From contig CAYQPU010000002.1 in assembly GCA_964419615.1 (NCBI GenBank), forward strand, positions 9,778-73,777: 64,000 nt of DNA, given 5' to 3'. This DNA is from an uncultured Methanosarcinales archaeon. Lineage in GTDB: Archaea > Nanobdellota > Nanobdellia > Woesearchaeales > JAGVZT01. The translations under genes were made by a program, and so were the position numbers. A model generated the notes under the pieces. That model saw nothing but the letters and a program-made list of their open reading frames with translations, had not been told where the DNA came from and searched no databases. Positions 3,020 to 22,089 of this stretch are shown piece after piece (the stretch's first letter is position 1; each line of letters starts with the position of its first letter).

Positions 3020-4450
3020 ATGGTAACAATAATACCAATAACAAACAAATGCAACCAGATGTGTGTATACTGCTCAGCACATGGAAGAGAAGATTCACCT
3101 AAAGAATATATTCTTAAGCAAATAAACTTGGCAAAAGACCATTTAATAATCACTGGAGGAGAAACAACACTCTCACCTGATTTAATTAAATACATTAAAA
3201 AGGCCAAAGAAAAAGATTTGTATGTTGAACTCCAGTCAAATGGGACTATGTTCTATTATAAAGATTTTGCAAAAAGAGTGGTTGATGCGGGCGTAGACTT
3301 ATTTAATATTGCAATGCAATCACACATTAAAGAAACCTATAACAGAATCACTCAAACCAAAGGACTTTTGCCAAAAAAAATCCAAGGTATCAAAAACCTT
3401 CTTGATCTAAATGCAAAGGTAAGGATAACGTGTGTTATTAATAAATTGAATTACACAGAGCTTGAAGAATTTAGCAAACATATACTTGAAAACTTTGATA
3501 ACATCTTCTTGTTAGAATTCAACTTTATAAAAGCTTTAGGTCTAGCAGAAAAAAACAAAGAGATTGTACCAACTTATGAGCAAGTCTCACCTTATTTAAT
3601 AAATGCCCTAAAACTTTGCAAAGGCAGATTCAGAATATTAATAGATCACATCCCACTTTGCTATATAAAAGGATTTGAAGAAAATCACGCAGATGTTTTC
3701 AAGATCACAAATAAAAAAAATAAAGACTTTTTCAGTGAAAAAACTCATCTAAGTGAATGCAAGCAATGCACTCTTAATTCAATCTGCCTGGGCCCTAGAA
3801 AAGATTATCTTGAAGTTTACACACCAAAGCTAATTCCATCAAACAAAGATCCAGATAAAATAACTCAAGGAGCCACTGGTAAATCAGAAATCCTTATTAA
3901 TGATGATAACTACAAAAACCCAGTAAAAAACATTGCAGGCATGCATGTATTCAAGCTTGGCCAGTTAACCCCAGAAGTTAATGGGGTTATAGATCAGATA
4001 TACTTAAATTTTGACAAATTAATTGAAAATAACACCTCATTTGAATTAATTGATTTTCCAGTATGCTTATTTCGTCCATACAAAAGATACATTAAAAAAT
4101 CAGGCAAGCAGCAGAAAATAGAGATATGCAATGACTGTATCCATTCAAAAGACTGCTTTGGATTTAATAAAATATTCCTAGATGAGGAAAATAAATTAAA
4201 AATGCCCATAATCAACAAAAGCAGCATACTAACTGACAATGAAAAATGTATGCTTCAGATACTAAACCATGAGAACAACATCTCAACACAAAGAATCCTT
4301 GAACTAACGCCAAACTTCCTCATATGCGCAGACTGTGCAGGTGGTGCAAATGTGATGCAGGCTGGAGAAAAGCTAATCAATAAAAAGCTTGTTGGAAGAG
4401 AATTAAAAAACAAAGGTTATATTTGGAGACTAGTAAAAAATGAAAATTAA
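3020..4450 (+). CDS. Radical SAM protein (MoaA/PqqE-like core, auxiliary Cys cluster) with a ~190-aa Cys-containing C-terminal extension
   Basis: CNQMCVYC (CxxxCxxC) at residues 11-18, GGETTLSPDL, and the paralog C-terminal motif CKQCTLNSICLGPRKDYLEVY. Extra CNDCIHSKDC and CADCAGG sites in the extension. Confidence 0.7.
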   Translation: MVTIIPITNKCNQMCVYCSAHGREDSPKEYILKQINLAKDHLIITGGETTLSPDLIKYIKKAKEKDLYVELQSNGTMFYYKDFAKRVVDAGVDLFNIAMQSHIKETYNRITQTKGLLPKKIQGIKNLLDLNAKVRITCVINKLNYTELEEFSKHILENFDNIFLLEFNFIKALGLAEKNKEIVPTYEQVSPYLINALKLCKGRFRILIDHIPLCYIKGFEENHADVFKITNKKNKDFFSEKTHLSECKQCTLNSICLGPRKDYLEVYTPKLIPSNKDPDKITQGATGKSEILINDDNYKNPVKNIAGMHVFKLGQLTPEVNGVIDQIYLNFDKLIENNTSFELIDFPVCLFRPYKRYIKKSGKQQKIEICNDCIHSKDCFGFNKIFLDEENKLKMPIINKSSILTDNEKCMLQILNHENNISTQRILELTPNFLICADCAGGANVMQAGEKLINKKLVGRELKNKGYIWRLVKNEN

Positions 4451-5669
4451 AAAAGATTACCCTGCATTACATAGAAAAATTGATGGCAAACAAATTATTT
4501 ACTTTGATAATGCGTGCGCCATGCTCAAACCAAAGCTGGTGATTGATGCTATTAATTATTATTATCATAATCTAGGCAGCTGTGCAGGCTCAAGAGGAAC
4601 ATACAGCCTAAATGAAGAAACAAATGATATATGCGAAAGATCAAGAGAATTAGTAGCTAATTTCATTAATGCTAGTCCAAGAGAAATAATATGGACAAAA
4701 AACACAACAGAGAGCATTAACCTTGTAGCAAACTCTTTTAGATTTAATAAAGATGATGAAGTTATAGTATCAACATTAGACCACCACAGCAATATTCTAC
4801 CATTCTATGAACAAAGGAAAAGAGGAGTTAGACTTAAAATTCTGGAAATCAAAGATGAATTTGATTTAGAGCAATTAAAAAAAACAATCACCCCTAGAAC
4901 AAAGATTATATCTCTAACCCATGCTTCTAATGTAACAGGCCAAGTTCTTCCAATGAAAGATATCTGTGATATTGCTCATGAAAAAGACATATTAGTCTTA
5001 AGCGATGAAGCTCAGTTCATAGCTCATAAAGAATTAGATTTAAGGAACATAGATGCTGACTTTGCAGCATTCTCATCACATAAAATAGGGGGAGATACTG
5101 GACTTGGTGTATTATATGTCAAAGAAGAATTACTTGAGCAGTTAGAAAATTACAATGTTGGGGGAAGTACAGTAACTGATGTTTTATACGAAAAAGACAA
5201 ATTCATACCAAAATACATTAGAGGAGTTAGAAGATTTGAAGCTGGATTGCAGCATTATTCTGGAATAATTGGAATTGGTGCAGCAGTAAAGCAACTCACA
5301 AGAATTGGTCTTGAAAATATTGAAACTCATGAAAAAAAGCTAATAAGGACCTTATGGAAAGGGTTATCATGTTTTGATTTCAGATTCTTGTCCAGGAAAT
5401 CTCCAAGTAATATTCCTGTTTTCTCTTTTGTCCCAAAAATAAACCCAAATGATTTTGCAGTATATATGGACAAAGAAGTAAAGAACTATAAAATTATGAT
5501 GCGGGCAGGAAACCACTGCGCAAGTCCCTTATATTATTCAAAAGGCATATATCCAAGCCAAGGAGAAGGAAGTGTCAGAATCTCGTTATTTGCCTACAAT
5601 ACAAAGGAAGAGTTGGATATTTTTATTGAAAAAACAAATGAGTTAATTGATAAATTAAACAAATTGTAA
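4440..5669 (+). CDS. Class V aminotransferase / cysteine desulfurase-like (NifS/SufS/CsdA family), PLP-dependent
   Basis: SSHKIGGDTG (PLP-lysine SxHK motif) and LDHHSNILP. The 409-aa size fits; the start overlaps the upstream radical-SAM gene and the stop abuts the next one. Confidence 0.7.
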   Translation: MKIKKDYPALHRKIDGKQIIYFDNACAMLKPKLVIDAINYYYHNLGSCAGSRGTYSLNEETNDICERSRELVANFINASPREIIWTKNTTESINLVANSFRFNKDDEVIVSTLDHHSNILPFYEQRKRGVRLKILEIKDEFDLEQLKKTITPRTKIISLTHASNVTGQVLPMKDICDIAHEKDILVLSDEAQFIAHKELDLRNIDADFAAFSSHKIGGDTGLGVLYVKEELLEQLENYNVGGSTVTDVLYEKDKFIPKYIRGVRRFEAGLQHYSGIIGIGAAVKQLTRIGLENIETHEKKLIRTLWKGLSCFDFRFLSRKSPSNIPVFSFVPKINPNDFAVYMDKEVKNYKIMMRAGNHCASPLYYSKGIYPSQGEGSVRISLFAYNTKEELDIFIEKTNELIDKLNKL

Positions 5670-5670
5670 A

Positions 5671-6576
5671 ATGGAAGATACACAAACAATAATTCTTGTG
5701 ACTGGTGATTGCAACCAGAACTGTGTATTTTGTTCTGGAGAGCAAAGCGGTGCAGATAGAGAAGCTCAGAGTGATGAAGAGATTCTAAAACTCATTAAAA
5801 ATTAAAAGTGCACTCTTTCTATTGAGGGAGGAGAACCAACATTATCAAACAAACTTGCAGAATACACAGTAATTTCAAAAAAAGGAGGAACCAAAGACAT
5901 TATTCTTGTGACAAACGGTGTTAGATTATGTTATAAAGATTACTGCAAAAAATTACTCAAAGCAGGAGTCACTTTATTTAACATTAACTTCCCTCACAGT
6001 GATGAGAAAAAATGTGATGCTATAACACGAACAAAAGGTCATTATAAACTAAGAAAAAAAGGAATTAAGAACTTAATTGAACTCGGAGCAGGAGACAAAG
6101 TAAGGTTTAATTTTGTTATCAATAAAACAAATTTTGACAACATGGTTGATTATGTCAAGATGGTTAAAACCGAATTTCCTGAGATATTCTATATTGAGTT
6201 TAATTATGTCAAAGTATTAGGATATGTAAAAAAGAGAAAAGCACTTGTACCAACATTAACTCAGGTTCAACCATTCTTTAATAAAGCACTGGAATTCTGC
6301 AAGAAAAATGATGTAAGAATAATTGTAGATGGAATTCCTCTTTGCTTGATGCAAGGATATGAGCATCTAAACATTGACACACAATTCATCATAGATTCCA
6401 TACTTAACCCATTTATTGAAGAAAAAATCAAACCCAAGGTTTGTAATTCCTGTTCACTAAGTAAAATTTGTTCAGGAATGAGAAAAGATTATTATGAAAT
6501 ATTTGGAGCTGATGAACTTAAACCTTCTAGTACAAACCCCAAGCAAATTATAAAAATAATAAAATGCAAAGAATAG
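5671..6576 (+). pseudogene. Radical SAM paralog interrupted by an in-frame TAA
   Basis: MEDTQTIILVTGDCNQNCVFC (CxxxCxxC) from 5671. An in-frame TAA at 5803-5805 is followed in the same frame by KCTLSIEGGEPTLS (the GGEP motif). The ORF track lists only 5908..6576. The C-terminal CNSCSLSKICSGMRKDYYEIFGADELKP matches the paralog motif. Confidence 0.6.
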
Positions 6577-7481
6577 ACCTTCAATTAAACATGACCTGCA
6601 ATGAGAATTGTTTATTTTGCGCTTCAGCTGATGGCTCAAATTCATTTACAGACACTAAGAAATCAATTGAAATAATTCAGGATGCAATTGAATCTGGTGT
6701 GACAGATATCTGTTTTTCTGGTGGAGAACCCACCTTAAGAGACGATCTTCCAATATTAGTTAATTACATCAAAAAACAAAATCCACTGATTAAAGTTACT
6801 GTATTAACAAATGCTATGAGGCTTTGTTATGAATGGTACTCAAAAAAACTAGACAAAGTGGATTATTTTAACATCTCGGTTCATGGTTCAAATAGTAAAC
6901 CAAATGATGCACTAACCCGAACTCCAGGAAGTTTTGATAAAACAATATCTGGAGCAACAGTGATTCAAGAATTAGGTTATACTTTTGGATTTTATTTTGT
7001 TATAACTAAAACTAACTATAAGGAGATTGTCGAGTTTGCAGAGTTTGTAAAAAAGAATTTTCCAAAATGTAAGGCCATTACATTTTCTTTCCCATATTTA
7101 TCAGGGAACATGCTCAAACATTTATTCTTATTGCCAAAACTTTCAAAAATAAGTCCTTTGTTGGATGAATCTAAGAAACTATGTGAAGATGCAGGAATTG
7201 GATGGGAATTATCCAGTTGCGGTCTTATGCCATTATGTACTTTAAGTGTGCCAATCAGAGCAAAGGTAATAAAGAATAATGAGTCTTATAATGAAGAATC
7301 AATTCAAACAACATCACAAGAAGGAAATAAAGATTATGTGGTAACAAAACAAAACTATCAGAACCAACATTTTGTTAGGAGCTCTGCTTGTGAGAATTGC
7401 ACCCACAATTCTTTGTGTCCAGGTGTGTGGAAACAATATTCAGAAATCTATGGTACAGACGAGCTAAAGACTATTCACTAA
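6564..7481 (+). CDS. Radical SAM protein, MoaA/PqqE-like paralog
   Basis: CNENCLFC at the N-terminus, GGEPTLRDDL, TNAMRL, and the C-terminal CENCTHNSLCPGVWKQYSEIYGTDELK. Confidence 0.7.
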   Translation: MQRIDLQLNMTCNENCLFCASADGSNSFTDTKKSIEIIQDAIESGVTDICFSGGEPTLRDDLPILVNYIKKQNPLIKVTVLTNAMRLCYEWYSKKLDKVDYFNISVHGSNSKPNDALTRTPGSFDKTISGATVIQELGYTFGFYFVITKTNYKEIVEFAEFVKKNFPKCKAITFSFPYLSGNMLKHLFLLPKLSKISPLLDESKKLCEDAGIGWELSSCGLMPLCTLSVPIRAKVIKNNESYNEESIQTTSQEGNKDYVVTKQNYQNQHFVRSSACENCTHNSLCPGVWKQYSEIYGTDELKTIH

Positions 7482-7524: not shown

Positions 7525-9162
7525 TTATGCTTTGATAGAATGTTTATTTATCTCTTTATATGCAATCTCCCTGAATTCTACTGGATCACCTGTTCTTGGT
7601 GAAAGTTCTTTAAATGAATTAAGTATTTCTTTGTGTATTATATTTTCAGTGTTTTCTTTATTAAGTTGATTTATTTTCAGCATTGCAGATTCACCTGTAA
7701 AAACATAATCGATGCGAAACAATGCCTCTTCCTTGCCAACTACAACCTTAATCAGATTGTCTGAATAATATTTATTAATTGCTTCAATTATTTTTTCTTT
7801 TCCGATAAAAAACAGACCATAAAAGAACTTGTCTTTTCCTGTTTTTGGCAGATAATAAATCTGATCACCTTCTTCTCTTACTTGTCCCAGCTGCTTTAGC
7901 TTTTCAAGTGGCTCAGAAAAAACATCATTCAACTCTTTTTTGAAGTTTTGCTTAAAATTACTTTTTGAGATTTGGGATATGTTTACAATAATCTCAAAGA
8001 CAAACCTTTGCATTTCTTCAGCTTCTGAGAACTCAATCATGCTAAATTTACTTTTTATTGGATCTAAGGTGGGTGGGTTGCTAAAGTAACGAATTTTATT
8101 TTTAATATATGAACTAGCATGATGACCAAGTCCCAACACAGATCCTTTACAATCAACATTAAAGTGATACACATCTGGTATTTTCTGGGCAGAAGAAAGC
8201 AAAAAGAGCATTGAAGCGGCATTTCCTGCATCAAGTATTCTCTCATCTGGAGATTCATATCCCTTGCTTACAGCATACTTGATTATTTGGGGCATGCACT
8301 CTCTTAGTTCATTAAAATGCTTTTGAAATTCACCAAGACTTCCATTAAAATACTTTTTCAGATATGAGACTGTAGGCTGGCATTTGTAAAGCCTAACTGT
8401 TGTAGGCTGAAGATCAAGTAATCTCTTAAAACTTTTTGTAAAGGTCTTTTTTGTATCTTTGTATAGTCCAATTATCATATCTGTGTTATACTGTTCAAAG
8501 CCAAGCTCTCTGCAATTTGTAATGCATTTTGTGATCATATCTTCATTTTGATAATCTCTATTTATTGACTTAAGAACATTCAAATTTAGTGACTGTACTC
8601 CAAAACTAACCCTATTAAATCCAGCTTGTTTTAATATTTTCAATTTATTGAATGTTGTGCTCTGAGGATTTAATTCAAATGTTTTTTCACTGGTGTCTAA
8701 AAAACTTGCATATCTAAAGAATATTTCAAGTATCTCTGATAAGTCAGTATTATCAAAAAGACTTGGAGTCCCGCCTCCAAAATACAGATTATGGAACTTT
8801 CTTTTTTTTAGCACTTCTTTAAAAAGATGTATTTGATTAATCAGACATTCTGCATATTCCTTTACCTGTCTCTTGTTTTTAACAATTCCTTTATGATATA
8901 TGCAAAAATAGCACTTTGAATAACAATAAGGCACACCAATATAAACATTAATCTTATCAGTTTTATTATCAGACAGATAACTTAGCCATTTTTTCCTTAT
9001 ATAATCTCCATTAACTACCTTTGATTTTTTAAGCAGCTGCCTTTCAAATAAATCTGTTAAAAAGAAATTGTGGTGATAGCCATGTTTTTTTAATTGATCC
9101 ATGTAAAAAGAATACACAAACTTCTCAGCTTTGATCTCTTTGTTTATGTCTTTTAAGTCCAT
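7525..9162 (-). CDS. HemN/HemW-like radical SAM protein (coproporphyrinogen-III-oxidase family fold) with a C-terminal extension
   Basis: YIGVPYCYSKCYFCIYH matches the HemN-type Cx3Cx(F/Y)C signature. FGVQSLN matches the HemN-family GVQS motif. 545 aa. Confidence 0.65.
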   Translation of the reverse strand: MDLKDINKEIKAEKFVYSFYMDQLKKHGYHHNFFLTDLFERQLLKKSKVVNGDYIRKKWLSYLSDNKTDKINVYIGVPYCYSKCYFCIYHKGIVKNKRQVKEYAECLINQIHLFKEVLKKRKFHNLYFGGGTPSLFDNTDLSEILEIFFRYASFLDTSEKTFELNPQSTTFNKLKILKQAGFNRVSFGVQSLNLNVLKSINRDYQNEDMITKCITNCRELGFEQYNTDMIIGLYKDTKKTFTKSFKRLLDLQPTTVRLYKCQPTVSYLKKYFNGSLGEFQKHFNELRECMPQIIKYAVSKGYESPDERILDAGNAASMLFLLSSAQKIPDVYHFNVDCKGSVLGLGHHASSYIKNKIRYFSNPPTLDPIKSKFSMIEFSEAEEMQRFVFEIIVNISQISKSNFKQNFKKELNDVFSEPLEKLKQLGQVREEGDQIYYLPKTGKDKFFYGLFFIGKEKIIEAINKYYSDNLIKVVVGKEEALFRIDYVFTGESAMLKINQLNKENTENIIHKEILNSFKELSPRTGDPVEFREIAYKEINKHSIKA

Positions 9163-9296
9163 ATTACTAAAAAGAAGTTTAATGTATAAATAATTTATTA
9201 TAACGAGAATTTTTCAATTAAGAGAAATATGTATTAAAAAAACTTAACAATACATTTATTAACTATTATGCTATACTTTTGTCTTGTGAAACTTTA

Positions 9297-10193
9297 ATGA
9301 CAAATGTTATGGAAATTACCGTAGGATATAAGTGCAATTGTAATTGTAGGTTTTGTTCTGTTGGTCATATGAGAAAAGAATTAACTCTTAGTACAGACCA
9401 AATTAAAAATAAAATTTTGGAAGCAAAAGAAAAAAACATACCAAATATTGGTTTTGGTGGTGGTGAACCAACTATTAGAAAAGATCTTTTTGAGGTCGTA
9501 TCCTTTGCCAAAAAACAGGGATTTAAAGTTATCAGAATCCAAACTAATGGAGTAATGCTTGGTTATGATACTTTTGTTGATAAATTACTCAAAGCAGGAG
9601 CAACATTCTTTAAAATCTCAATCCATGGTCATAATGCAAAGATACATGACCATCTAACTCAATTACCAGGTAGTTTTAATATGGCAATTAAAGGAATAAA
9701 AAACCTTAAAAAAAGAGGTATGTCAGTTGAAATCAATATTGTAATTAACAAATTAAATTACAAGTACCTGCCTCAAATAACTGACTTTTTTATAAAAATG
9801 CAGATTTACAAGTTCTGCTTTATTTATCCTGTTTATGAAGGTAATCTGATTGATAATTTTGGTAAGATTGGCGTAAAGCTAGGTGAAATTTCTCCTTACT
9901 TGACAGATGCTCTGGATAGGGTTAAAGAGCTTGATCTTGACAAAGGAATTTGTCTAAATGTGCCTCCATGTATCCTAAGCCAAGATCCAGATATGCACTA
10001 TGGTTATGTTTACAAGTTTGATACAGTTGTATCAACACCACAAGGAACCAATGACATAGATAATTCAAATAAAGAGAATCTAGTTAAGCCAAAGCAGTGC
10101 AGAAGATGTGTTTTTAATAAAAACTGTATGGGTATATATAAGAGTTACACTAGGTTTTTTGGGATTGATGAGTTTAAACCAGTTCTTAAGTGA
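9297..10193 (+). CDS. Radical SAM protein, MoaA/PqqE-like paralog
   Basis: YKCNCNCRFC, GGGEPTIRKDL, IQTNGVML, and the C-terminal CRRCVFNKNCMGIYKSYTRFFGIDEFKPV. The track ORF starts at a TTG at 9279; the ATG at 9297 is preferred by analogy with the paralog N-termini. Confidence 0.7.
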   Translation: MTNVMEITVGYKCNCNCRFCSVGHMRKELTLSTDQIKNKILEAKEKNIPNIGFGGGEPTIRKDLFEVVSFAKKQGFKVIRIQTNGVMLGYDTFVDKLLKAGATFFKISIHGHNAKIHDHLTQLPGSFNMAIKGIKNLKKRGMSVEINIVINKLNYKYLPQITDFFIKMQIYKFCFIYPVYEGNLIDNFGKIGVKLGEISPYLTDALDRVKELDLDKGICLNVPPCILSQDPDMHYGYVYKFDTVVSTPQGTNDIDNSNKENLVKPKQCRRCVFNKNCMGIYKSYTRFFGIDEFKPVLK

Positions 10194-10199
10194 TTTGCA

Positions 10200-10880: not shown

Positions 10881-10961
10881 GAAAGACTCCCATTAATCTC
10901 TAAGCTACAAGATGGATTACTAATTAATCAGAAATCAGTAATGTAAAAAATTATAAAAAAA

Positions 10962-14784: not shown

Positions 14785-14795
14785 TTTTGCAAAAA

Positions 14796-14804
14796 TTTAT
14801 ATAT
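14796..14804 (+). promoter_or_regulatory. Candidate TATA box (tttatatat) for the precursor gene, with the SD-like ggaaggtga at 14829-14837
   Basis: An AT-rich TATA-like octamer ~40 nt upstream of the ATG at 14841. A purine-rich ribosome-binding site is correctly spaced. Confidence 0.25.
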
Positions 14805-14840
14805 CAATAGAATTCAGATATATTAAAAAGGAAGGTGAGT

Positions 14841-15272: not shown

Positions 15273-15300
15273 ATTGTAAAACCATTATTTTTGTATTGAA

Positions 15301-17238
15301 ATGCAAATCAGATTATTTAACATTAAAAAGAAGAAGTTTGAATATATTAATGAAAGAGATATCTCTAATCATCTAAGTGAGTTAGATAAGCTAATTCATA
15401 TTGTAAGCAACCATAGAAATAGATATTATTACTTACCAAAAAAAACCGCAATAATTGAAATCCCAAAAAGTATCTCTTGTTACCAGTCTCATCCTTCAGA
15501 CACAGAATCAGATCTGTTCAAAATTGTTGATAAGGATATAAAAAGAGACCGAGAAAAGCCTCTTTTTAAAGATCTAATTATAAATATGCACTCAAAATGT
15601 AATTTGGATTGTAAGTATTGTTTTGGATTTTCAAAAGATAAAGAGTTAGAGACACCCACTGAAACAATAGTGGCTCTCATTAGCTATCTCTATAAAAAAA
15701 GATATTCTCTGAATAGAATCTATTTCTTGGGATCTGGTGAAACACTACTTGAGTTTAATAGATTTAAAGATATAGTTTCGATACTTAAACAGTATTATCC
15801 AAATGTTCCAATAATAGTTGTTACAAATGGTATTTTATCAAAGCAAAAAATAGACTGGTTGATTAAAAGAAAGATAAATATAAGGTTGAGTTGTGATGGT
15901 CCAGCTTTTATAAATGATGTTTCTAGACCCATAAAAAATAGCACAAAAAAACCATCAGAGACAGTTCATGCTAACCTCCAATACATAGTAAAGAATACAT
16001 CTTTATTTACAATAGCACCAACTATTACAAAATTATCTCAGGGATTTGAATCAAACATACTATACTTTTTTTGGAAATTAGGTGTGAAACTTGATAAGAT
16101 CAGCTGGAACCATGCATCATGCAGAGGAAAAGCAAAGGAACAGCCTACTATCTTAATGAATTATGATGAAATTAACAGATCACAAATTGTGTGGGATGAG
16201 TTGGAAGATATACTTGGAGATTACACTAAAACAAATATGTTTGTTAATATGATGGGAACACCTTTTCTTTGTGGAACCATTAATTTTGGCTGGATCACAA
16301 TTGATGAAAGAGGATGTATTAGTAGCTGTTCAAAGCATGTAAATTCTCTGAATAATTCCTTAATTGAAAAACTTTTAATTGGAAGATATGATTTTGAATC
16401 CAAAAAAATCCTTATTTCAAGTAACTCAATTAAGAATACAAATAATTGGATTATATCTGTAATGGAAAAGACAGATTGTTTTAATTGTGAATATCTTTCA
16501 CTTTGTCGGGGCCCATGCTTCTATGATTCACTTGTGATTGAAGACAATATTGGTGAAGATAACAAAACAAATATCCAGTGTATTAAAAGGAAAAATTATG
16601 TTAATAATATCCTACAATATTTGATTGAGACTCATATGTGGAAGAAATATCCACACCACTTAGTAGAGAATGGAATAGAATACTTTAACTATTCTCATAA
16701 TAAGTTTGAGATTAGAGATCCCAATGACCTCCCAAATAAGTTTCAAAGTGCGATCAAGATTAAGATAGACGTTGAAAATAATTTAGGCAAACAAATAGAT
16801 CACTTAATTAATTTAAGTAATTCTGAAAATTATTGTTTTAGATTTTTTTTACTTGAATTTAAAATAAACTTAACCAATCCGGAACAAATAGCTAAGAAAA
16901 TAAACCACTTTCTTGGAAAATTACAGCAAAATTTTGTGTGTTTCCTTGTATTAAAGCCTCTCCCTTATTGTGTTAGGAGATATATTAAAAAAACTTTTTC
17001 AATACCAAACACTTGTCTTGAATGCAACAAAATGTTTACCGTAAAAGACAACAAAGTAATATTTTGTGATGGATCAGATGGGAAGAAATTTGATAAATAT
17101 GTAGACAGGACGCAGATTTTCAATGACTTTAAGAAAATTAATAAGAACACTAATAATCTCTGCCTAAATTGCATTTACAAGGATAGAAAATTATGTTTTG
17201 GTTATGTTGAAAATATTAATTGTATTGCGAACAATTAA
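15301..17238 (+). CDS. Large radical SAM/SPASM-domain protein (second maturase of the pair; HxsC/HxsB-like) with N- and C-terminal extensions
   Basis: ~100-aa N-terminal domain, then CNLDCKYCFGFS, GSGETLLEF and VVTNG. A SPASM-like CFNCEYLSLCRGPCFYD is followed by a Cys-rich tail (CLECNKMF..FCDGSD..CLNCIYKDRKLCFGY). 645 aa. Confidence 0.65.
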   Translation: MQIRLFNIKKKKFEYINERDISNHLSELDKLIHIVSNHRNRYYYLPKKTAIIEIPKSISCYQSHPSDTESDLFKIVDKDIKRDREKPLFKDLIINMHSKCNLDCKYCFGFSKDKELETPTETIVALISYLYKKRYSLNRIYFLGSGETLLEFNRFKDIVSILKQYYPNVPIIVVTNGILSKQKIDWLIKRKINIRLSCDGPAFINDVSRPIKNSTKKPSETVHANLQYIVKNTSLFTIAPTITKLSQGFESNILYFFWKLGVKLDKISWNHASCRGKAKEQPTILMNYDEINRSQIVWDELEDILGDYTKTNMFVNMMGTPFLCGTINFGWITIDERGCISSCSKHVNSLNNSLIEKLLIGRYDFESKKILISSNSIKNTNNWIISVMEKTDCFNCEYLSLCRGPCFYDSLVIEDNIGEDNKTNIQCIKRKNYVNNILQYLIETHMWKKYPHHLVENGIEYFNYSHNKFEIRDPNDLPNKFQSAIKIKIDVENNLGKQIDHLINLSNSENYCFRFFLLEFKINLTNPEQIAKKINHFLGKLQQNFVCFLVLKPLPYCVRRYIKKTFSIPNTCLECNKMFTVKDNKVIFCDGSDGKKFDKYVDRTQIFNDFKKINKNTNNLCLNCIYKDRKLCFGYVENINCIANN

Positions 17239-17887: not shown

Positions 17888-18817
17888 ATGGGCAAAAGAG
17901 TAGACATTAAGACTGGTTTTAAGTGCAACAATAATTGTAAGTTCTGTGTACAGGCTTGGAAAAAGCCAGAAGGCAATCGACCCAAAGAAGATATTTCTAA
18001 AGACCTGTATGATGCAAAAAAAGCAGGATGCGTGGGAGTTGTTTTTACTGGTGGAGAGGTTTCAATAAGGGCAGATTTTTTTGAGCTTTTAGAGTGTGCA
18101 CATGACATTGGATTTGCTGAAATCCAAGTACAAACAAATGCAAGAAGGTTTTATTACATGGATTTTTGCATAAAAGCAGTGAGGGCAGGCATGAATGATT
18201 TTGGGCCAGCAATTCATGGACATACAGCAGAGTTGCATGATTCATTGACACAAAGCCAAGGAAGCTTTAATCAAGCCTGCCAAGCTATAAAAAATATAAA
18301 ATCTCTTGGAGTTAATGTGATTACAAACACTGTTGTTGTTAGACCCAATTATAAGTTTATTCCAGAGATAGCAAAATTACTGGTCAGCCTTGATGTGAAT
18401 CAATACCAGTTTGCATTTATGCATGCTGTAGGCAACGCTATGGATAATTATAATAAAATGATGCCAAGAGTAAGTCTGGCTGCTCCCTACATTAAAAAAG
18501 GACTTCAGATAGGAATTGATGCAGGCAAAAAAGTAATGGCTGAAGCAATGCCTTATTGTGTTATGAAAGGATATGAGAGATACACTTCTGAACTTTACAT
18601 ACCTGAAACTGAAATTAGGGATACAACCAGTTATGATCCTGATTTTGGAAATACCAGGAGAACACAAGGAAAGGTGAAATTTTCAAAATGCAAGCAGTGC
18701 AAGTACGACCTTATCTGTGAAGGTCCATGGAAAGAGTATCCGGAAAGAATGGGCTCAAAGGAGTTTGTACCTGTGAAAGGTGACAAAATAATAAGTGCTA
18801 AGGAGATCCTATGCTAG
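17888..18817 (+). CDS. Radical SAM protein, MoaA/PqqE-like paralog
   Basis: FKCNNNCKFC, FTGGEVSIRADF, VQTNARRF, and the C-terminal CKQCKYDLICEGPWKEYPERMGSKEFVPV. Confidence 0.7.
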   Translation: MGKRVDIKTGFKCNNNCKFCVQAWKKPEGNRPKEDISKDLYDAKKAGCVGVVFTGGEVSIRADFFELLECAHDIGFAEIQVQTNARRFYYMDFCIKAVRAGMNDFGPAIHGHTAELHDSLTQSQGSFNQACQAIKNIKSLGVNVITNTVVVRPNYKFIPEIAKLLVSLDVNQYQFAFMHAVGNAMDNYNKMMPRVSLAAPYIKKGLQIGIDAGKKVMAEAMPYCVMKGYERYTSELYIPETEIRDTTSYDPDFGNTRRTQGKVKFSKCKQCKYDLICEGPWKEYPERMGSKEFVPVKGDKIISAKEILC

Positions 18818-19773
18818 AACAATATAAACCTGTTAACTATGGTGAAGAGTATGTGGAATTTTGTGGGAGTTCACAATACCCAATGTTTGTTGCAACTGCA
18901 CTAGGTGTTAAGCCTTGTTTTGATGATTGGGTTCCTTGCAATAAATATGGAGAATTTGTAGGAATCTGTAAGGAATACGGGTTATTTGTTGAGCCGGATG
19001 TGGTTTTTGTAAAAACGAGTTTAGATAAAAAACAGGTTGTAGGAGGAGACACAATTACAACAACATTTACAGAGGTTGTGCCGTTTAAGGAAAATGCCAA
19101 GAATGGGCAGGTGCATGTTTTTGTATCAAAAGCCAAAGACCAAGCAATTAGAACTAGGAGGTGTGGGTGGTATCCGGGAATTATTAGTGGCAGATCAGTA
19201 AATAAACCATTTGTTGACCACATGAGATTTGGAAAGAACTTGGGTTTCCCAGAATGCTGTGTGGATTTCTTTAGAAAGTACAATAATTGGGCAAAATACT
19301 CACACCCATACGAAAGCTATAATAGCACACCAAACAAAAGTAGTCCGTCCTCATATTATTGTAATAATTTCACAATGGATTTTATCTATTTTTATATTCA
19401 CCATATCCCATGTAATTTTAAATGCGATGCAACTATCGCTTCTGCAAAAGTTGTAGAGAATAAAATAAAAGATGTTGAACCAAAATTTGTTGAGAAAACT
19501 AATAAGATTCTAAAAAGTCCGTTGTTAGTCTTTGGTGAACGTAATTTCATATTGTTTGAGGAAGGTAATTACTCAAAAGGAGAATTAAAATACAAAAAAA
19601 CAAAATATATCTCAAATTACGCCCGAAAAGAGGATAGAGTTGGATTTATTAATGATGTTCAAAAAGGCAATAGTTTGTTTTTCAAAGATAAGAAATTATG
19701 TGTAGAGAAAAATGAAAACTTAATCTTTGAGATAGAGAAAGAGCCTGAATGGTTTATAATTGATTTTCAATAA
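18811..19773 (+). CDS. Hypothetical Cys-motif protein (GFPxCC ... HIPCxFKC); distant paralog of 43213..44115
   Basis: GFPECCVDFF ... YYCNNFTMDFIYFYIHHIPCNFKCDATI is shared with GYPKCCCKTI ... YCMNCCIPLIYHLPCSPKCQQT of the 43213 gene. Confidence 0.3.
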   Translation: MLEQYKPVNYGEEYVEFCGSSQYPMFVATALGVKPCFDDWVPCNKYGEFVGICKEYGLFVEPDVVFVKTSLDKKQVVGGDTITTTFTEVVPFKENAKNGQVHVFVSKAKDQAIRTRRCGWYPGIISGRSVNKPFVDHMRFGKNLGFPECCVDFFRKYNNWAKYSHPYESYNSTPNKSSPSSYYCNNFTMDFIYFYIHHIPCNFKCDATIASAKVVENKIKDVEPKFVEKTNKILKSPLLVFGERNFILFEEGNYSKGELKYKKTKYISNYARKEDRVGFINDVQKGNSLFFKDKKLCVEKNENLIFEIEKEPEWFIIDFQ

Positions 19774-20251
19774 AATGATTAAAGAACTTGAAGAATATCT
19801 TAGATTCCCAGTCAAAAGGGTTATTGTTAAATTAGACTATGAGACCCCTCATGATGAGGCTTTCTCATACGCAATTTGTCAGAGATTCTTTAATAAACCA
19901 GATCAGTTAAAAACTGCGATGCAACTTGGAAATAAGGCTCTCAACCAATTGCTAAAAAAAGAAGATTATATCCAGATTAGTCATCTATTTGCACTTGTTG
20001 GGAATATGTACTATCTCCAGGAGAAATATAAAATCAGTGCGGGATACTTTTTAAAGAGCATAAATTATAATAAAAAAGATCTTACCAGTTGGATTGAGCT
20101 GATATTCTCAATAAGAGCCATGGGAGATTTTGATACATTTGATAAGTGTATATTTAATCTTAAAAAGCTATATACGCTTGGACAAAGAGAAGAAGAGATT
20201 ACACAACAAACGCTGCTAAAACTAATTGAGCAGGCATGTAAAAATGGGTAA
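19760..20251 (+). CDS. Hypothetical helical protein (TPR-like repeat character)
   Basis: 163 aa, helical with an A/L/Y/K-rich periodicity. It overlaps the start of the next radical-SAM gene. Confidence 0.25.
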   Translation: MIFNKMIKELEEYLRFPVKRVIVKLDYETPHDEAFSYAICQRFFNKPDQLKTAMQLGNKALNQLLKKEDYIQISHLFALVGNMYYLQEKYKISAGYFLKSINYNKKDLTSWIELIFSIRAMGDFDTFDKCIFNLKKLYTLGQREEEITQQTLLKLIEQACKNG

Positions 20252-21149
20252 TAAATCAGAAGTAATCGGGTTGATCCATAAATGCAATTGTTTATGTATT
20301 ATGTGTCCAAATTCTTTAAGTTATCGTAAACTTAAAGATATGACTAAACTTGAATTTTTTGAGTGGGTAGACAGACTTACACCAGATGTCAACCACATTA
20401 CCTTTACAGGAGGTGAACCAACTCTCCGACGCGATTTGTTTGAGCTTATTAATTATGTTAATCAGAAGAGGCCAGACATACATATGAGGCTGCTTACAAA
20501 TGCCAGGATGTTTTATTACAAATCTTATTTGGATGATTTTCTTGCTCAAGGCCTAAAAAACCTCGAATTTGGCATCCCTATTTGTGGACCAAATGCAAAA
20601 ACCCATGATAAGGTTACAAAGGCTAAAGGTAGCTTTGAGCAAACCATGGGGGGAATGAAGAACCTCATGGCAAATGGATTTTTAGTTGAATTAAGAATTG
20701 TGATTAATAAGATCAATCTTGATGAGTTGAATAATATGTCTGAGCTGATCAAAAAAGAACTAAATGATGTACTCAGGATCACATTTTATTACATGCAAAT
20801 CACAGGAAATGCTTTAAAAAATAAGGACGAAGTTTTTATTTCATATAAAAAAATTCGTGATAAAATTGATATTGCGCTTAACAGTCTGAATGGGTTTACA
20901 ATTGGACTTTGTCATTTCCCACTTTGCACTGTTAATCCAAAATGGTGGCCAATTGTTTGGAGGAGCGTTGTTGATAGGAAGCTGTTTTTCCCTGAAAAAT
21001 GTAATTTGTGTTTGTATAAAAAGTATTGCCTGGGAGTTATGAAAAGTTATAGGGCCAATTTTGGGGTAGGAGAATTTCAGCCAATTAAACAAAAGTACAA
21101 TATTGTTGAGAGCAATGATCTAGCACGGCCAATAAAAGAGGTGCTATAA
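20226..21149 (+). CDS. Radical SAM protein, MoaA/PqqE-like paralog
   Basis: HKCNCLCIMC, FTGGEPTLRRDL, LLTNARMF, and the C-terminal CNLCLYKKYCLGVMKSYRANFGVGEFQPI. The alternative ATG at 20244 is possible. Confidence 0.7.
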   Translation: MSRHVKMGNKSEVIGLIHKCNCLCIMCPNSLSYRKLKDMTKLEFFEWVDRLTPDVNHITFTGGEPTLRRDLFELINYVNQKRPDIHMRLLTNARMFYYKSYLDDFLAQGLKNLEFGIPICGPNAKTHDKVTKAKGSFEQTMGGMKNLMANGFLVELRIVINKINLDELNNMSELIKKELNDVLRITFYYMQITGNALKNKDEVFISYKKIRDKIDIALNSLNGFTIGLCHFPLCTVNPKWWPIVWRSVVDRKLFFPEKCNLCLYKKYCLGVMKSYRANFGVGEFQPIKQKYNIVESNDLARPIKEVL

Positions 21150-22089
21150 TGCCAGAACGTATTACAATTATCCAGGATTACAGATGCAATAACAACTGTA
21201 TGTTTTGCTGTAATGGAGACAAAAGAAATGATTTCAAAGGAATGAACACAATAGAAGTAATGGAAACAATGAGGGTTGGAAGAAAAAGAGGGGCAACTTT
21301 TATTGACTTTATTGGTGGTGAGCCAACAATGAGAAGCAATATTATCCCACTTGTGAAATATGCTAAAAAATTGGGCTTTATAACTATAGCAACAACATCT
21401 AATGGGAGGATGTATTCTTATCCAGAATTTACAAAAAAAATGATTGATGCGGCCCAAATGCACAAATTCATGATTATTTAACAAGAGTTCCGGGTTCATT
21501 TGACCAGGCATTAAAAGGCATAGAAAATGCAAAAAAATTTGGTATAGAGCGAATTGAAATCAACACAACAATTGTTAAACCAAATTACAAGCATCTGCCG
21601 AAAATGGCCCAGATGTACAATGAGCTAGGAGTTGCTGAACCTAATTATATCTTTCCAGATCCTACGCCTATTGGATATGCATATAAATACTTTGATGAAA
21701 TAGTCCCAACATACACAGAATCAATGCTTTATGTTAGAAAAGCTATTCAGGTAGGGGTTGATGGTTTAAATGACCAGATACTAACACAATATGTTCCCGC
21801 ATGTTTTATGAAAGGCTATGAAAAACATATAGGTGAGTTCTTTTTTGAACCTGAAACAGAACATCATGCTTCAGATTTTATTAATGAGAATGTTATTGAG
21901 GGAAGAAAACAAGCAGGAAAATTAAAAGGTCCTCAATGCCGCAAATGTAAATTTGATCCAGTCTGTGAGGGAGTATGGAAACAATATGGTAAGAAGATAG
22001 GCCTTCATGAACTAGTGCCTGTTCCAGGAAAACCATTTAGAACAAAGAAAGAACTCTTGATTGAGTTCTACGGTGAAGAGACTTTGTGA
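21149..22089 (+). pseudogene. Radical SAM paralog disrupted by a -1 frameshift in a GCGGCCC run (~21449-21455)
   Basis: The N-terminal part (21149-21481) carries YRCNNNCMFC and IGGEPTMRSNI. The C-terminal part (21604-22089, a different frame) carries CRKCKFDPVCEGVWKQYGKKIGLHELVPV. Re-reading in the shifted frame from 21451 gives GPNAQIHDYLTRVPGSFDQALKGIENAKKFG, which aligns with the paralog FGPAIHGHTAELHDSLTQSQGSF. Confidence 0.6.

What the first reader, a model, noticed from the sequence alone, without database searches (positions are those of the whole stretch)
3020..22089. Nineteen-kb radical-SAM super-island: ten radical-SAM genes including seven MoaA/PqqE-like paralogs sharing a private C-terminal motif
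Radical-SAM (CxxxCxxC) genes lie at 3020, 5671, 6564, 7525(-), 9297, 13360, 15301, 17888, 20226 and 21149. Seven are ~300-aa paralogs. They share the N-terminal motif, GGEP(T)(L/I)R and TN(G/A), and a distinctive C-terminus: CxxC-x5-C-x-G-xxK-x-Y-x4-G-xxE(F/L)-x-P. Such an expansion next to a repeat-peptide precursor suggests many distinct modifications. Alternatively the paralogs could modify separate, possibly unrecognised, substrates.
Basis: seen in the sequence. Interest (0 to 1): 0.8.

Follow-up and report, generated by a model that had tools for sequence, protein, structure and literature searches.

The report
Expanded archaeal His-Xaa-Ser radical-SAM island
This 19-kb stretch of a small-genome (DPANN-type) archaeon is an unusually large version of the His-Xaa-Ser (HXS) protein-maturation system, recently shown in E. 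coli to block phage DNA entry: a secreted (His-Gly-Ser)n repeat peptide sits among ten radical-SAM enzymes, seven of them relatives of the maturase HxsC.

Summary
Ten radical-SAM (rSAM) genes lie between 3020 and 22089. Seven are mutually related (23-41% identity) and share C-x2-C-x5-C-x-G-x2-K-x-Y. Two of the seven are broken in this assembly, and one is 476 aa, not about 300.

The interpretation needs correcting. The paralogs are not MoaA/PqqE-like. Their best curated matches are HxsC and HxsC4, all below cutoff. The island holds a His-Xaa-Ser core that passes NCBIfam cutoffs: HxsD, HxsB and an HxsA4-type precursor.

The motif is not private. Its cysteine part occurs in named bacterial HxsC. 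The full motif recurs in 147 non-redundant relatives from archaeal and candidate-phyla contigs.

The whole island type is conserved:
- Orthologues of the 17888 gene are 45-72% identical across DPANN assemblies.
- They sit in arrays of 1-7 HxsC-like genes.
- In 12 of 20 well-flanked loci they lie within 10 kb of HxsA, HxsB or HxsD.
- Nearly half of the 150 best cluster representatives carry two or more rSAM cluster motifs; the ten examined hold up to four, with up to three copies of the C-terminal motif.

Best reading: an archaeal, multi-enzyme variant of the HXS maturation system. Its chemistry and biological role are untested. I found no description of it in the literature, so I rate it a new variant of a known kind.

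The parts
3020..4450 (+). HxsC-like radical-SAM paralog, 476 aa. It has a C-terminal extension of about 190 aa that contains a second CxxCx5CxG.
   Evidence: PF04055 at 1.7e-18. Best NCBIfam match is HxsC TIGR03977 at 103 bits, below the 268 cutoff. Motif CKQCTLNSICLGPRKDY. No Pfam match for the extension.
4440..5669 (+). SufS-like class V aminotransferase (cysteine desulfurase-like). It overlaps or abuts the flanking HxsC-like genes.
   Evidence: PF00266 at 2e-94. SufS TIGR01979 scores 346 bits, below the 475 cutoff. A similar arrangement, 3020-like / SufS / 3020-like, is seen in L079. A role in supplying Fe-S clusters is my inference.
5671..6576 (+). HxsC-like paralog interrupted by an in-frame TAA at 5803-5805. 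Probably a pseudogene or a read-through gene.
   Evidence: Sequence and translation. The same stop is present in the 100% identical JGI contig L092. HxsC scores 94.6 bits. 41% identical to the 3020 product.
6564..7481 (+). HxsC-like radical-SAM paralog, 305 aa.
   Evidence: PF04055 at 4e-20. HxsC4 122 bits and HxsC 99 bits, both below cutoff. Motif CENCTHNSLCPGVWKQY.
7525..9162 (-). HemN-like (class C type) radical-SAM protein, 545 aa.
   Evidence: PF04055. Best NCBIfam matches are the STM4012 family, HemN and HemZ at 140-151 bits, all below cutoff. In L003 and L005 the homologous domain is fused to an HxsC-like domain.
9279..10193 (+). HxsC-like radical-SAM paralog, 304 aa. An alternative ATG start lies at 9297.
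   Evidence: PF04055 at 1.9e-25. HxsC4 146 bits and HxsC 117 bits, below cutoff. Motif CRRCVFNKNCMGIYKSY.
11512..12624 (+). Archaeal A24-type (prepilin-peptidase-like) membrane protein, directly upstream of hxsD.
   Evidence: PF06819 at 2.8e-10; PF01478 is weak. A homologue is present in 10 of 20 well-flanked related loci. Asp92 in W-x3-D-x-K is invariant in 15 homologues. A role in processing HxsA is speculation.
12680..13135 (+). HxsD
   Evidence: TIGR03976 scores 51.9 bits against a cutoff of 50. Homologues in L003-L005 carry the Pfam HxsD domain PF27806.
13128..13373 (+). Small HxsD-related protein, 81 aa. Weak assignment.
   Evidence: NF038315 HxsD_rel scores 22.5 bits, below the 41 cutoff. 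The positional counterpart in L003 scores 56 bits, above cutoff.
13360..14784 (+). HxsB, a radical-SAM/SPASM maturase, 474 aa.
   Evidence: TIGR03978 scores 421.3 bits against a cutoff of 370. Pfam Radical_SAM and Fer4_12 above cutoff; the SPASM domain (PF13186) scores 20.8 bits, just under its 21.5 cutoff.
14835..15272 (+). HxsA4-type precursor. It has a conserved K-rich leader (…PRVKKSLRGYLMGEDGKISK), a hydrophobic segment ending …VSA, 22 H-x-S triplets (mostly HGS), and then W.
   Evidence: NF038313 HxsA4 scores 88.3 bits against a cutoff of 55. Tandem 9-nt repeats at 15111-15222. The same architecture is seen in about 20 related loci.
15301..17238 (+). Second radical-SAM/SPASM protein, 645 aa, with a Cys-rich C-terminal extension.
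   Evidence: PF04055. SPASM domain TIGR04085 scores 29.2 bits against a cutoff of 27; weak similarity to HxsB at 57.7 bits. A second HxsB-like or SPASM gene follows HxsA in L039, L042 and L052.
17888..18817 (+). The conserved 'anchor' HxsC-like radical-SAM enzyme, 309 aa. It is the most conserved gene of the island type.
   Evidence: 1064 homologues; the best 120 listed are 57-72% identical, and those with a source name are almost all labelled DPANN archaea. Orthologues found in 88 fetched loci. HxsC4 scores 154 bits, below the 500 cutoff. AF2 model pLDDT 95.8. Invariant C13/C17/C20 plus C224/C268/C271/C277.
18811..19773 (+). Conserved 320-aa protein of unknown function (weak DUF483 match) that travels with the 17888 gene.
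19760..20251 (+). Conserved 163-aa protein of unknown function.
   Evidence: Counterparts of 158-170 aa occupy the same position in L001, L003 and L004. No family match.
20226..21149 (+). The paralog closest to canonical HxsC, 307 aa.
   Evidence: TIGR03977 scores 208.5 bits, below the 267.9 cutoff, but aligns to profile positions 26-291 of 292. It is 35-38% identical to proteins that NCBI, UniRef or JGI name HxsC.
21149..22089 (+). HxsC-like paralog split by a 31-nt deletion near 21450 in this assembly. The allele in L001 is an intact 323-aa gene.
   Evidence: Frames read. blastn against L001 and translation of the L001 gene. The reconstructed protein matches HxsC4 at 140 bits over profile positions 14-335 of 335.
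22068..25166 (-). Two tandem PMT_2-type membrane glycosyltransferase paralogs flanking the island. Membership in the system is uncertain.
   Evidence: PF13231 at 2.1e-11 for the 22068-23579 product. PMT-like genes adjoin the island in L003/L004, L060, L063 and L084.

Best explanation
The island is an archaeal, strongly expanded variant of the His-Xaa-Ser (HXS) protein-maturation system.

**Shown by family thresholds or direct sequence evidence**
- A core of HxsD (12680), a small HxsD-related protein (13128, weak), the SPASM enzyme HxsB (13360) and an HxsA4-type precursor (14835).
- Seven HxsC-like radical-SAM enzymes, one HemN-like enzyme, a second SPASM enzyme, a SufS-like desulfurase and two conserved proteins of unknown function surround the core.

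**Inferred mechanism**
1. HxsA is made with a conserved Lys-rich leader, which I take to be the docking site for the cytoplasmic maturases.
2. HxsB and the conserved HxsC-like enzyme 17888 modify the (H-G/S/A-S)n array by radical chemistry. Enzyme 17888 is probably paired with HxsD, as HxsC is in E. coli.
3. Each HxsC-like enzyme carries the CxxxCxxC cluster. Four further invariant cysteines (P-x-C … C-x2-C-x5-C) would bind one auxiliary [4Fe-4S] cluster in a truncated SPASM/Twitch-like C-terminal domain.
4. The fast-evolving extra paralogs and the HemN-like enzyme add further steps or handle different repeat contexts within the same pathway. Homologous modules are found fused in single polypeptides elsewhere.
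5. The hydrophobic segment followed by A-x-A then directs export and cleavage. The result is a modified His-rich repeat peptide outside the cell.

By analogy with E. coli HXS, this peptide may hinder virus genome entry. A metal-binding or host-contact role is equally open.
For: **Core membership**
- HxsB scores 421 bits (cutoff 370) and HxsA4 scores 88 (cutoff 55).
- HxsD scores 51.9 (cutoff 50).

**Paralog identity**
- The best curated matches are HxsC or HxsC4 for all seven.
- The 20226 product is 35-38% identical to proteins named HxsC, and they share CxxCx5CxG at the C-terminus.

**Conserved synteny**
- L003 and L004 show hxsD / hxsD-rel / hxsB / hxsA (64 HxS triplets in L003) beside the 17888 orthologue, the 18811- and 19760-like genes and more HxsC-like genes.
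- In L005 hxsD lies directly upstream of the 17888 orthologue.
- 12 of 20 well-flanked metagenomic loci have an Hxs core gene within 10 kb.
- HxsA lies 21-22 nt upstream of the 17888 orthologue in L066 and L071.

**Precursor architecture**
- About 20 loci share the same layout: leader FLxxEEGKI[ST]K, a hydrophobic helix, A-x-A, HxS repeats and a terminal W or Y.

**Joint action of the modules**
- HxsC-like::HemN-like fusions occur in L003 and L005, and an HxsC-like::18811-like fusion occurs in L005.
- 73 of the 150 best cluster representatives carry two or more CX3CX2C motifs. In the ten I examined there are up to four, with up to three copies of the C-terminal motif.

**Auxiliary cluster**
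- Exactly four extra cysteines are invariant among 25 orthologues and among the seven paralogs.
- The closest folds are the Twitch/SPASM enzymes BlsE, SkfB and SuiB.

**E. coli precedent**
- HxsC binds HxsD (PMC13128918).
Against: - No paralog reaches the HxsC or HxsC4 cutoff. The best is 208.5 bits against 267.9.
- The gene order differs from the canonical D-B-C-A.
- Eight of 20 well-flanked loci have HxsC-like arrays with no HxsA, HxsB or HxsD within 10 kb.
- The loci were collected with the 17888 orthologue as bait, so the association was measured in one direction only.
- The 17888 orthologues are far more conserved (45-72%) than would be expected for a tailoring enzyme acting on a variable peptide.
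- Some 17888-like proteins are fused to a methyltransferase, an APH-type kinase or DUF364. These partners would also fit a small-molecule pathway.
- Two of the seven paralogs are disrupted in this assembly.
- No expression, chemistry or phenotype data exist for any archaeal member.
- The auxiliary cluster and the export route are inferred from sequence only. I could not inspect the model coordinates.
Confidence: 0.6

Rival explanations
1. The HxsC-like array is a separate DPANN-wide radical-SAM pathway, with the 18811-like, HemN-like and possibly PMT_2 genes. It would act on something other than HxsA, such as a glycan, a lipid, a cofactor-like small molecule or another surface protein. It would only often sit next to the HxsD/B/A core.
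For: - Eight of 20 well-flanked loci lack any Hxs core gene within 10 kb although they hold 2-7 HxsC-like genes.
- 17888 orthologues are 57-72% identical in assemblies labelled with several different DPANN lineages, which looks housekeeping-like.
- Fusions to a methyltransferase, an APH/fructosamine-type kinase and DUF364 exist.
- PMT_2 glycosyltransferases are recurrent neighbours.
- The closest solved relative by sequence and fold is BlsE, a nucleoside-sugar decarboxylase.
Against: - The best curated matches of all paralogs are HxsC or HxsC4.
- hxsD or hxsA directly abuts the 17888 orthologue in several loci.
- E. coli HxsC physically pairs with HxsD.
- The fetched flanks reach only 10 kb, so the 'missing' core genes may lie further away on the same genome.
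Confidence: 0.25
2. The paralog cloud reflects diversifying selection on a defence or surface system, with rapid turnover, redundancy and decay. Only a core (HxsB, HxsD and the 17888 enzyme) would be needed, and many extra copies would be interchangeable or dying.
For: - One strongly conserved anchor stands against paralogs that find only 30-48% identical counterparts in other loci.
- Copy number ranges from 1 to 7 among loci.
- Two of the seven copies are disrupted here. One of these is intact in a near-identical strain.
- The E. coli system is an antiphage defence.
Against: - The divergent paralogs all keep both cluster motifs. CX3CX2C is present in more than 95% and CxxCx5Cx[GRAS] in about 93% of copies of at least 250 aa.
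- Tandem multi-module fusions argue for cooperative, non-redundant modules.
- PADLOC shows no specific defence-family match, only similarity to the viperin rSAM core.
Confidence: 0.1
3. The seven genes are ordinary cofactor-biosynthesis enzymes of the MoaA/PqqE type, as the first reader labelled them. Public records also name homologues as a pterin dimethyltransferase or as QueE.
For: - Generic COG0535-type names are attached to homologues in public records.
- MoaA and PqqE models give significant but low scores of 39-96 bits.
Against: - All scores are far below the cutoffs of 231-381 bits.
- HxsC or HxsC4 models always score higher than MoaA or PqqE.
- From my own knowledge, MoaA has a C-terminal CX2CX13C and PqqE a full SPASM motif. 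Here the motif is CX2CX5C.
- No MoaB/C/D/E or pqq genes are nearby.
- Seven to ten copies in one locus does not fit a housekeeping cofactor step.
Confidence: 0.03

Closest known systems
E. coli HXS antiphage system, HxsD-HxsB-HxsC-HxsA (Li et al. 2026, Nat Commun, PMC13128918). First defined in silico by Haft & Basu 2011; the 2011 reference is from my own knowledge and is cited in PMC9062424.
   Same: - HxsB, HxsD and an HxS-repeat precursor pass the curated models.
- rSAM enzymes of the HxsC lineage are present.
- The precursor has an N-terminal export or processing region.
- A small HxsD partner sits next to an HxsC-type enzyme.
   Different: - The host is an archaeon. The paper reports 99.7% of systems in Pseudomonadota and never mentions archaea.
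- There are 7 HxsC-like genes instead of 1, plus a second SPASM enzyme, a HemN-like enzyme, SufS and two unknown conserved proteins.
- The gene order is D-D'-B-A-…-C-like.
- The precursor is of the HxsA4 type: about 20 or more HGS units and no match to any peptidoglycan-binding domain family in the Pfam or NCBIfam scans, where E. coli HxsA has 5 basic HxS units plus such a domain.
- No paralog reaches the HxsC cutoff.
NCBIfam HxsC (TIGR03977) and HxsC4 (NF038332) families
   Same: - They are the best-scoring curated families for all seven paralogs.
- The alignment runs to the C-terminal CxxCx5CxG: profile positions 26-291 of 292 for the 20226 product, and 14-335 of 335 for the reconstructed 21149 product.
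   Different: - Scores are 76-208 bits against a cutoff of 268 for HxsC, and 83-154 bits against a cutoff of 500 for HxsC4.
- The two named Firmicutes HxsC sequences inspected (Sporofaciens, Eubacterium ventriosum) are 368-370 aa, with an N-terminal extension of about 90 aa that is absent here, and they lack the K-x-Y…G-x2-E-F-x-P tail.
Twitch/SPASM radical-SAM enzymes with solved structures: BlsE 7vob, SkfB 6efn, SuiB 5v1q, GDGT-MAS 7tom
   Same: - The rSAM core is the closest in fold and sequence: Foldseek E 1e-12 to 1e-11 with TM 0.56-0.69, and hmmsearch 5.5e-17 to BlsE.
- A C-terminal Cys-rich domain follows the core.
   Different: - Only the core (residues about 7-200) aligns by sequence.
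- The C-terminal 110 residues have no solved relative.
- The Cys pattern is P-x-C … CX2CX5C, without the CX3C or the 7-Cys SPASM signature.
- Pfam SPASM does not match the paralogs.
MoaA and PqqE
   Same: They belong to the same broad rSAM subgroup (COG0535), with GGEP and TNG core motifs.
   Different: - Scores are far below the family cutoffs.
- The auxiliary-cluster motif is different.
- There is no pathway context.

Membership tests
His-Xaa-Ser (HXS) system | An HxsB radical-SAM/SPASM maturase scoring above the TIGR03978 cutoff | tested here: met
   13360-14784 scores 421.3 bits against a cutoff of 370.
His-Xaa-Ser (HXS) system | An HxS-repeat precursor (HxsA family model above cutoff, repeated H-x-S) | tested here: met
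   14835-15272 scores 88.3 bits on HxsA4 NF038313 against a cutoff of 55, and has 22 HxS triplets.
His-Xaa-Ser (HXS) system | HxsD scoring above the TIGR03976 cutoff | tested here: met
   12680-13135 scores 51.9 bits against a cutoff of 50. This is marginal.
His-Xaa-Ser (HXS) system | An HxsC maturase scoring above the TIGR03977 cutoff | tested here: not met
   The best paralog, 20226-21149, scores 208.5 bits against 267.9. The others score 76-117. HxsC remains the best or second-best family for all of them.
His-Xaa-Ser (HXS) system | The canonical four-gene operon hxsD-hxsB-hxsC-hxsA | tested here: not met
   The order here is hxsD, hxsD-rel, hxsB, hxsA, a SPASM rSAM gene, a minus-strand ORF, then HxsC-like genes. 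There are 7 HxsC-like genes. The canonical layout is reported for 99.6% of bacterial systems.
His-Xaa-Ser (HXS) system | rSAM-dependent modification and export of HxsA, with an antiviral phenotype | not testable with these tools
   This needs expression, mass spectrometry and infection assays. PADLOC v2 has no HXS model and gives only weak similarity to the viperin rSAM core.
HxsC4 (NF038332) | A score above the 500-bit cutoff | tested here: not met
   Window paralogs score 83-154 bits. 17888 orthologues from L003 and L084 score 170-181 bits.
MoaA (GTP 3',8-cyclase) | A score above the TIGR02668, TIGR02666 or NF001199 cutoffs | tested here: not met
   Scores are 39-96 bits against cutoffs of 231-325.
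MoaA (GTP 3',8-cyclase) | A C-terminal CX2CX13C auxiliary-cluster motif (from my own knowledge) | tested here: not met
   All seven paralogs have CX2CX5C-x-G.
PqqE and SPASM-domain rSAM enzymes | A score above the TIGR02109 cutoff, or a Pfam/TIGR SPASM domain match | tested here: not met
   PqqE scores 40-70 bits against a cutoff of 381. No SPASM match (PF13186) for any of the seven. HxsB comes close (PF13186 20.8 bits against a 21.5 cutoff) and the 645-aa protein passes the TIGR04085 SPASM cutoff (29.2 against 27).
Radical-SAM superfamily | A PF04055 match plus a CX3CX2C cluster motif | tested here: met
   All ten genes match. CX3CX2C is invariant in A1 and A2.

The most novel reading that the evidence does not exclude
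DPANN archaea, and some candidate-phyla bacteria, carry a lineage-wide, previously undescribed multi-enzyme radical-SAM 'assembly line'. It is built around a highly conserved HxsC-type enzyme and includes polypeptides with three or four tandem HxsC-like modules. It installs several different radical modifications on a secreted (His-Gly-Ser)n peptide. This would be the first archaeal HXS system, and could act as an extracellular barrier to virus genome entry or as a host-contact or metal-binding polymer for these episymbionts.
Probability: 0.3. Interest if true: 0.8.

Novelty: new variant of a known kind. Interest (0 to 1): 0.6.

Why it matters
HXS was assigned a function only in 2026: blocking phage DNA entry in E. 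coli. In that work its distribution is reported as 99.7% Pseudomonadota, with a fixed four-gene layout.

This window and about 90 related contigs show a much larger archaeal version. The anchor enzyme family has about 2,100 clusters at 50% identity scoring E ≤ 1e-30.

For organisms with roughly 1-Mb genomes, spending about 19 kb on ten Fe-S radical enzymes around one repeat peptide implies an important extracellular product.

The system offers three things:
- a natural series of diverged HxsC modules with which to work out the still unknown HXS chemistry, namely the +8 Da change in an HxS unit;
- a test of whether HXS-type defence exists in archaea;
- a new C-terminal auxiliary-cluster domain that has no solved structure.

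It also flags systematic misannotation of these genes as MoaA, QueE or a pterin methyltransferase.

Tried and rejected
- **Genome scan.** The genome-contig scan with the single 17888 protein returned only 5 loci, because the word patterns were too strict. I used the metagenome scan with an alignment instead.
- **Organism name.** Exact-sequence cluster look-up gave no names or accessions. The taxon is inferred from homologue names (Woesearchaeota and other DPANN) and from archaeal markers (PriS, archaeal A24 C-terminal domain).
- **RNA genes.** Rfam and ARAGORN found no RNA genes in the window. A suspected rRNA region in L015 was not one.
- **PADLOC.** Only non-specific similarity to the viperin rSAM core.
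- **afdb50 fold library.** Unavailable.
- **C-terminal extensions.** Those of the 3020 and 15301 products look alike by eye, but BLASTP gives only E = 0.039 and Pfam finds nothing. I make no claim about them. The idea of a winged-helix or RRE domain in the 3020 tail was dropped for lack of evidence.
- **Class III signal peptide.** I considered a pilin-type signal peptide in HxsA cleaved by the neighbouring A24 peptidase. The leader lacks the usual [KR]-G cleavage context, and an A-x-A signal-peptidase-I-like site fits better. I kept this only as an observation of co-location.
- **Small upstream ORFs.** The 70-80-aa ORFs upstream of the 17888 orthologues in L060 and L084 are not recognised as HxsD-related.
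- **Haft & Basu 2011.** The paper is not in the searchable library.

Full report
**1. What is in the sequence**

The window is AT-rich, about 32% G+C. It is archaeal: it encodes a PriS-type primase small subunit and an archaeal A24 peptidase C-terminal domain.

Between 3020 and 22089 lie three tightly packed, mostly co-directional gene blocks with overlapping or abutting reading frames:
- 3020-7481, followed by a HemN-like gene on the minus strand and the 9279 gene;
- 11512-17238;
- 17888-22089.

For 21149-22089 the match comes through its N-terminal half and its intact allele. The seven roughly 300-aa genes align over their whole length (A1). Invariant positions are CxxxCxxC, GGE, P-x-C and C-x2-C-x5-C-x-G-x2-K-x-Y. 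A strict pattern for the last motif hits only these seven ORFs in the six-frame translation of all 64 kb. A profile of the seven finds no eighth copy.

Three corrections apply:
- The 5671 gene has an in-frame TAA at 5803-5805. A 100% identical JGI contig shows the same stop.
- The 21149 gene is split by a 31-nt deletion. A 99.9-100% identical ENA contig has an intact 323-aa gene instead.
- The 3020 product is 476 aa.

The paralogs are only 23-41% identical to each other, so this is not a recent amplification.

**2. What the genes are**

Curated NCBIfam models identify a His-Xaa-Ser core above their cutoffs:

| Gene | Family | Score (bits) | Cutoff (bits) |
|---|---|---|---|
| 13360-14784 | HxsB | 421 | 370 |
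| 14835-15272 | HxsA4 | 88 | 55 |
| 12680-13135 | HxsD | 51.9 | 50 |

The 81-aa gene at 13128 resembles the HxsD-related family weakly. Its positional counterpart in a related contig passes that cutoff.

For all seven paralogs the best curated families are HxsC or HxsC4, not MoaA or PqqE. None reaches the cutoff. The best is the 20226 product, at 208.5 bits against 267.9, aligned to profile positions 26-291 of 292.

The 20226 product is 35-38% identical to proteins that NCBI, UniRef or JGI name HxsC. The two named Firmicutes HxsC sequences I inspected end in CEICDYKKVCGG… and CSKCAVRDACGG…. The K-x-Y…G-x2-E-[FL]-x-P tail is found in Aenigmarchaeota, Portnoybacteria and Omnitrophica relatives.

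The other genes are:
- a SufS-like desulfurase (4440);
- a HemN-like rSAM enzyme (7525, minus strand);
- a second SPASM rSAM enzyme of 645 aa (15301);
- an A24-type peptidase (11512);
- two conserved proteins of unknown function (18811, 19760);
- two PMT_2 glycosyltransferases on the flank.

**3. The island type is conserved**

The 17888 protein has 1064 homologues. The best 120 listed are 57-72% identical. Those that carry a source name are almost all from Woesearchaeota, Nanoarchaeota, Aenigmarchaeota or Micrarchaeia assemblies; one is labelled Thorarchaeota.

Two long contigs were examined first.
- In a 1.84-Mb contig (L003), the orthologue lies beside hxsD, hxsD-rel, hxsB and an HxsA with 64 HxS triplets. 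It is followed by 18811- and 19760-like genes, further HxsC-like genes, an HxsC-like::HemN-like fusion, a B12-type rSAM gene and a PMT-like gene.
- In a 334-kb contig (L005), hxsD directly precedes the orthologue. An HxsC-like domain is fused to an 18811-like domain, but no HxsA or HxsB lies within 10 kb.

A metagenome scan with an alignment of orthologues gave 80 more loci. I labelled their ORFs with phmmer against the window proteins. Among the 20 loci with at least 8 kb on both sides of the orthologue:

| Feature within the locus | Loci (of 20) |
|---|---|
| HxsA | 10 |
| HxsB | 10 |
| HxsD | 9 |
| At least one of HxsA, HxsB, HxsD | 12 |
| All three | 7 |
| A24 peptidase | 10 |
| HemN-like gene | 8 |

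The number of HxsC-like genes per locus ranges from 1 to 7, with a median of about 4. In L066 and L071 HxsA ends 21-22 nt before the orthologue.

All detected precursors share one architecture:
- a Lys-rich leader with FLxxEEGKI[ST]K;
- a hydrophobic helix;
- an A-x-A-like site;
- a spacer;
- (H-G/S/A-S)n;
- a terminal W or Y.

The window's HxsA fits this pattern.

**4. The motif and the fold**

I collected 147 non-redundant HxsC-like C-termini from the fetched loci. Their consensus is C-x2-C-x5-C-x-G(84%)-x4-Y(65%)-x4-G(61%)-x2-E(59%)-[FLI]-x-P(56%). CX3CX2C is kept in more than 95% and CxxCx5Cx[GRAS] in about 93% of copies of at least 250 aa.

In 25 orthologues of 17888 exactly seven cysteines are invariant. 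Three belong to the rSAM cluster. The other four are C224, C268, C271 and C277. The same pattern holds among the seven paralogs. I infer one auxiliary [4Fe-4S] cluster bound by four cysteines, in a truncated SPASM/Twitch-like domain.

The AF2 model is confident, with pLDDT 95.8. Its nearest solved folds are BlsE, SkfB, GDGT-MAS, SuiB and viperins, at TM 0.56-0.69. By sequence only the rSAM core (residues about 7-200) matches any PDB entry. The C-terminal domain therefore has no solved relative. I could not inspect the model coordinates, so the cluster geometry is not verified.

**5. Do the paralogs work together?**

Evidence for joint action:
- Genes overlap tightly within the blocks.
- The 18811, 19760 and HemN-like partners recur.
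- Fusions link HxsC-like modules to HemN-like and 18811-like modules.
- An exhaustive profile search found 2,161 cluster representatives at E ≤ 1e-30 and 10,364 at E ≤ 1e-10. Of the 150 best, 73 carry two or more CX3CX2C motifs. The ten examined hold up to four, with up to three copies of the C-terminal motif.

Evidence that they may not all act on HxsA:
- Eight of 20 loci lack the Hxs core within 10 kb.
- The anchor enzyme is unusually conserved (45-69% in 88 loci), whereas the other window paralogs find only 30-48% identical counterparts.
- Some anchors are fused to a methyltransferase, an APH-type kinase or DUF364.
- The loci were collected using the anchor as bait, so association was measured in one direction only.

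**6. Mechanism proposed, and what is inferred**

Shown: family membership of HxsB, HxsD and HxsA; the HxsC-lineage affinity of the paralogs; conserved synteny and fusions.

Inferred:
- The cytoplasmic maturases dock on the conserved leader.
- HxsB and the anchor HxsC-like enzyme, with HxsD, modify the HxS array by radical chemistry.
- The extra paralogs and the HemN-like enzyme add steps or handle different repeat contexts.
- SufS supports Fe-S supply.
- The hydrophobic segment plus A-x-A leads to export and cleavage.

The only experimental precedent is E. coli HXS (PMC13128918). There HxsB, HxsC and HxsD are all needed for N-terminal processing, for a +8 Da change within one HxS unit and for periplasmic accumulation of HxsA. 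HxsC binds HxsD, and the system blocks phage DNA entry. Whether the archaeal product is antiviral, metal-binding or involved in host contact is open.

**7. Comparison with what is known, and novelty**

The system works like HXS and contains bona fide HxsB, HxsD and HxsA4. The seven paralogs fail the HxsC and HxsC4 thresholds, and the operon layout differs. I therefore file the island as a variant of HXS, not as a canonical member. It is not MoaA or PqqE: scores are far below cutoff, the auxiliary motif is different, and there is no pathway context.

The 2026 paper reports 99.7% of systems in Pseudomonadota, more than 99.8% with four genes, and does not mention archaea. Full-text searches for DPANN or Woesearchaeota with radical SAM, SPASM or RiPP found no description of these arrays. 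NCBIfam's HxsA4 model shows that curators have seen this type of precursor.

Verdict: a new variant of a known kind. Interest is moderate to high (0.6). This rests on the scale of the enzyme expansion in tiny genomes, the size of the family, the undescribed C-terminal cluster domain, and the chance to extend a newly discovered defence mechanism to archaea.

Noticed in passing
window 5803-5805: An in-frame TAA lies inside an otherwise intact HxsC-like gene (5671-6576). The same stop is present in a 100% identical JGI contig (L092). It could be a nonsense mutation, or possibly a read-through or recoded stop.
   Followed up: partly
window ~21450 and 19725-19752, compared with L001: There are two strain-level indels relative to a 99.9-100% identical ENA contig. 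One is a 31-nt deletion that breaks the 21149 gene here. The other is about 33 nt of extra sequence in the window, in frame, at the 18811/19760 gene junction (320 and 163 aa here against 309 and 158 aa in L001).
   Followed up: partly
window 11512-12624, and 10 of 20 related loci: An archaeal A24-type (prepilin-peptidase-like) membrane protein recurs next to hxsD or the rSAM arrays. Asp92 (W-x3-D-x-K) is invariant in 15 homologues. Whether it processes HxsA is unknown.
   Followed up: partly
[not shown]
   Followed up: yes
window 3890-4450 (3020 product, residues ~290-476) and 16590-17238 (15301 product, C-terminus): Both C-terminal extensions carry a P-x-C … RYIKK … CxxCx5-7CxG-like segment and look related by eye. 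BLASTP gives only E = 0.039 and Pfam finds nothing.
   Followed up: partly
P0315, P0318, P0323, P0324 and other proteins: There are giant proteins of 900-1,400 aa with up to four CX3CX2C motifs and up to three copies of the HxsC-type C-terminal motif. 73 of the 150 best cluster representatives have two or more CX3CX2C motifs. I could not inspect their genomic context.
   Followed up: partly
window 4440-5669; L079 17169-19600: A SufS-like cysteine desulfurase is embedded between two 3020/5671-type HxsC-like genes. The same three-gene arrangement appears in one other locus.
   Followed up: partly
window 22068-25166 (-): Two tandem PMT_2-type membrane glycosyltransferase paralogs of about 500 aa each abut the island. 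PMT-like genes also flank the arrays in L003, L060, L063 and L084.
   Followed up: partly
window 10194-10961: An apparently non-coding gap of about 770 bp, with slightly raised G+C, separates the first and second gene blocks. No Rfam or tRNA match.
   Followed up: no
window 1-64000: No tRNA, rRNA or other Rfam family is detected anywhere in the 64 kb. The 1153-aa ORF at 31737-35198 has no Pfam match.
   Followed up: no
P0004 and P0123 (public annotations): Close homologues of the 17888 and 20226 genes are named '7,8-dihydro-6-hydroxymethylpterin dimethyltransferase' and '7-carboxy-7-deazaguanine synthase' in NCBI records. These are probably over-annotations of generic rSAM similarity.
   Followed up: partly
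L013, L025, L052: Some related loci carry 3-5 HxsB-like (SPASM) genes, and L079 encodes two HxsA precursors. The B-type maturase and the precursor can therefore also be multiplied.
   Followed up: no
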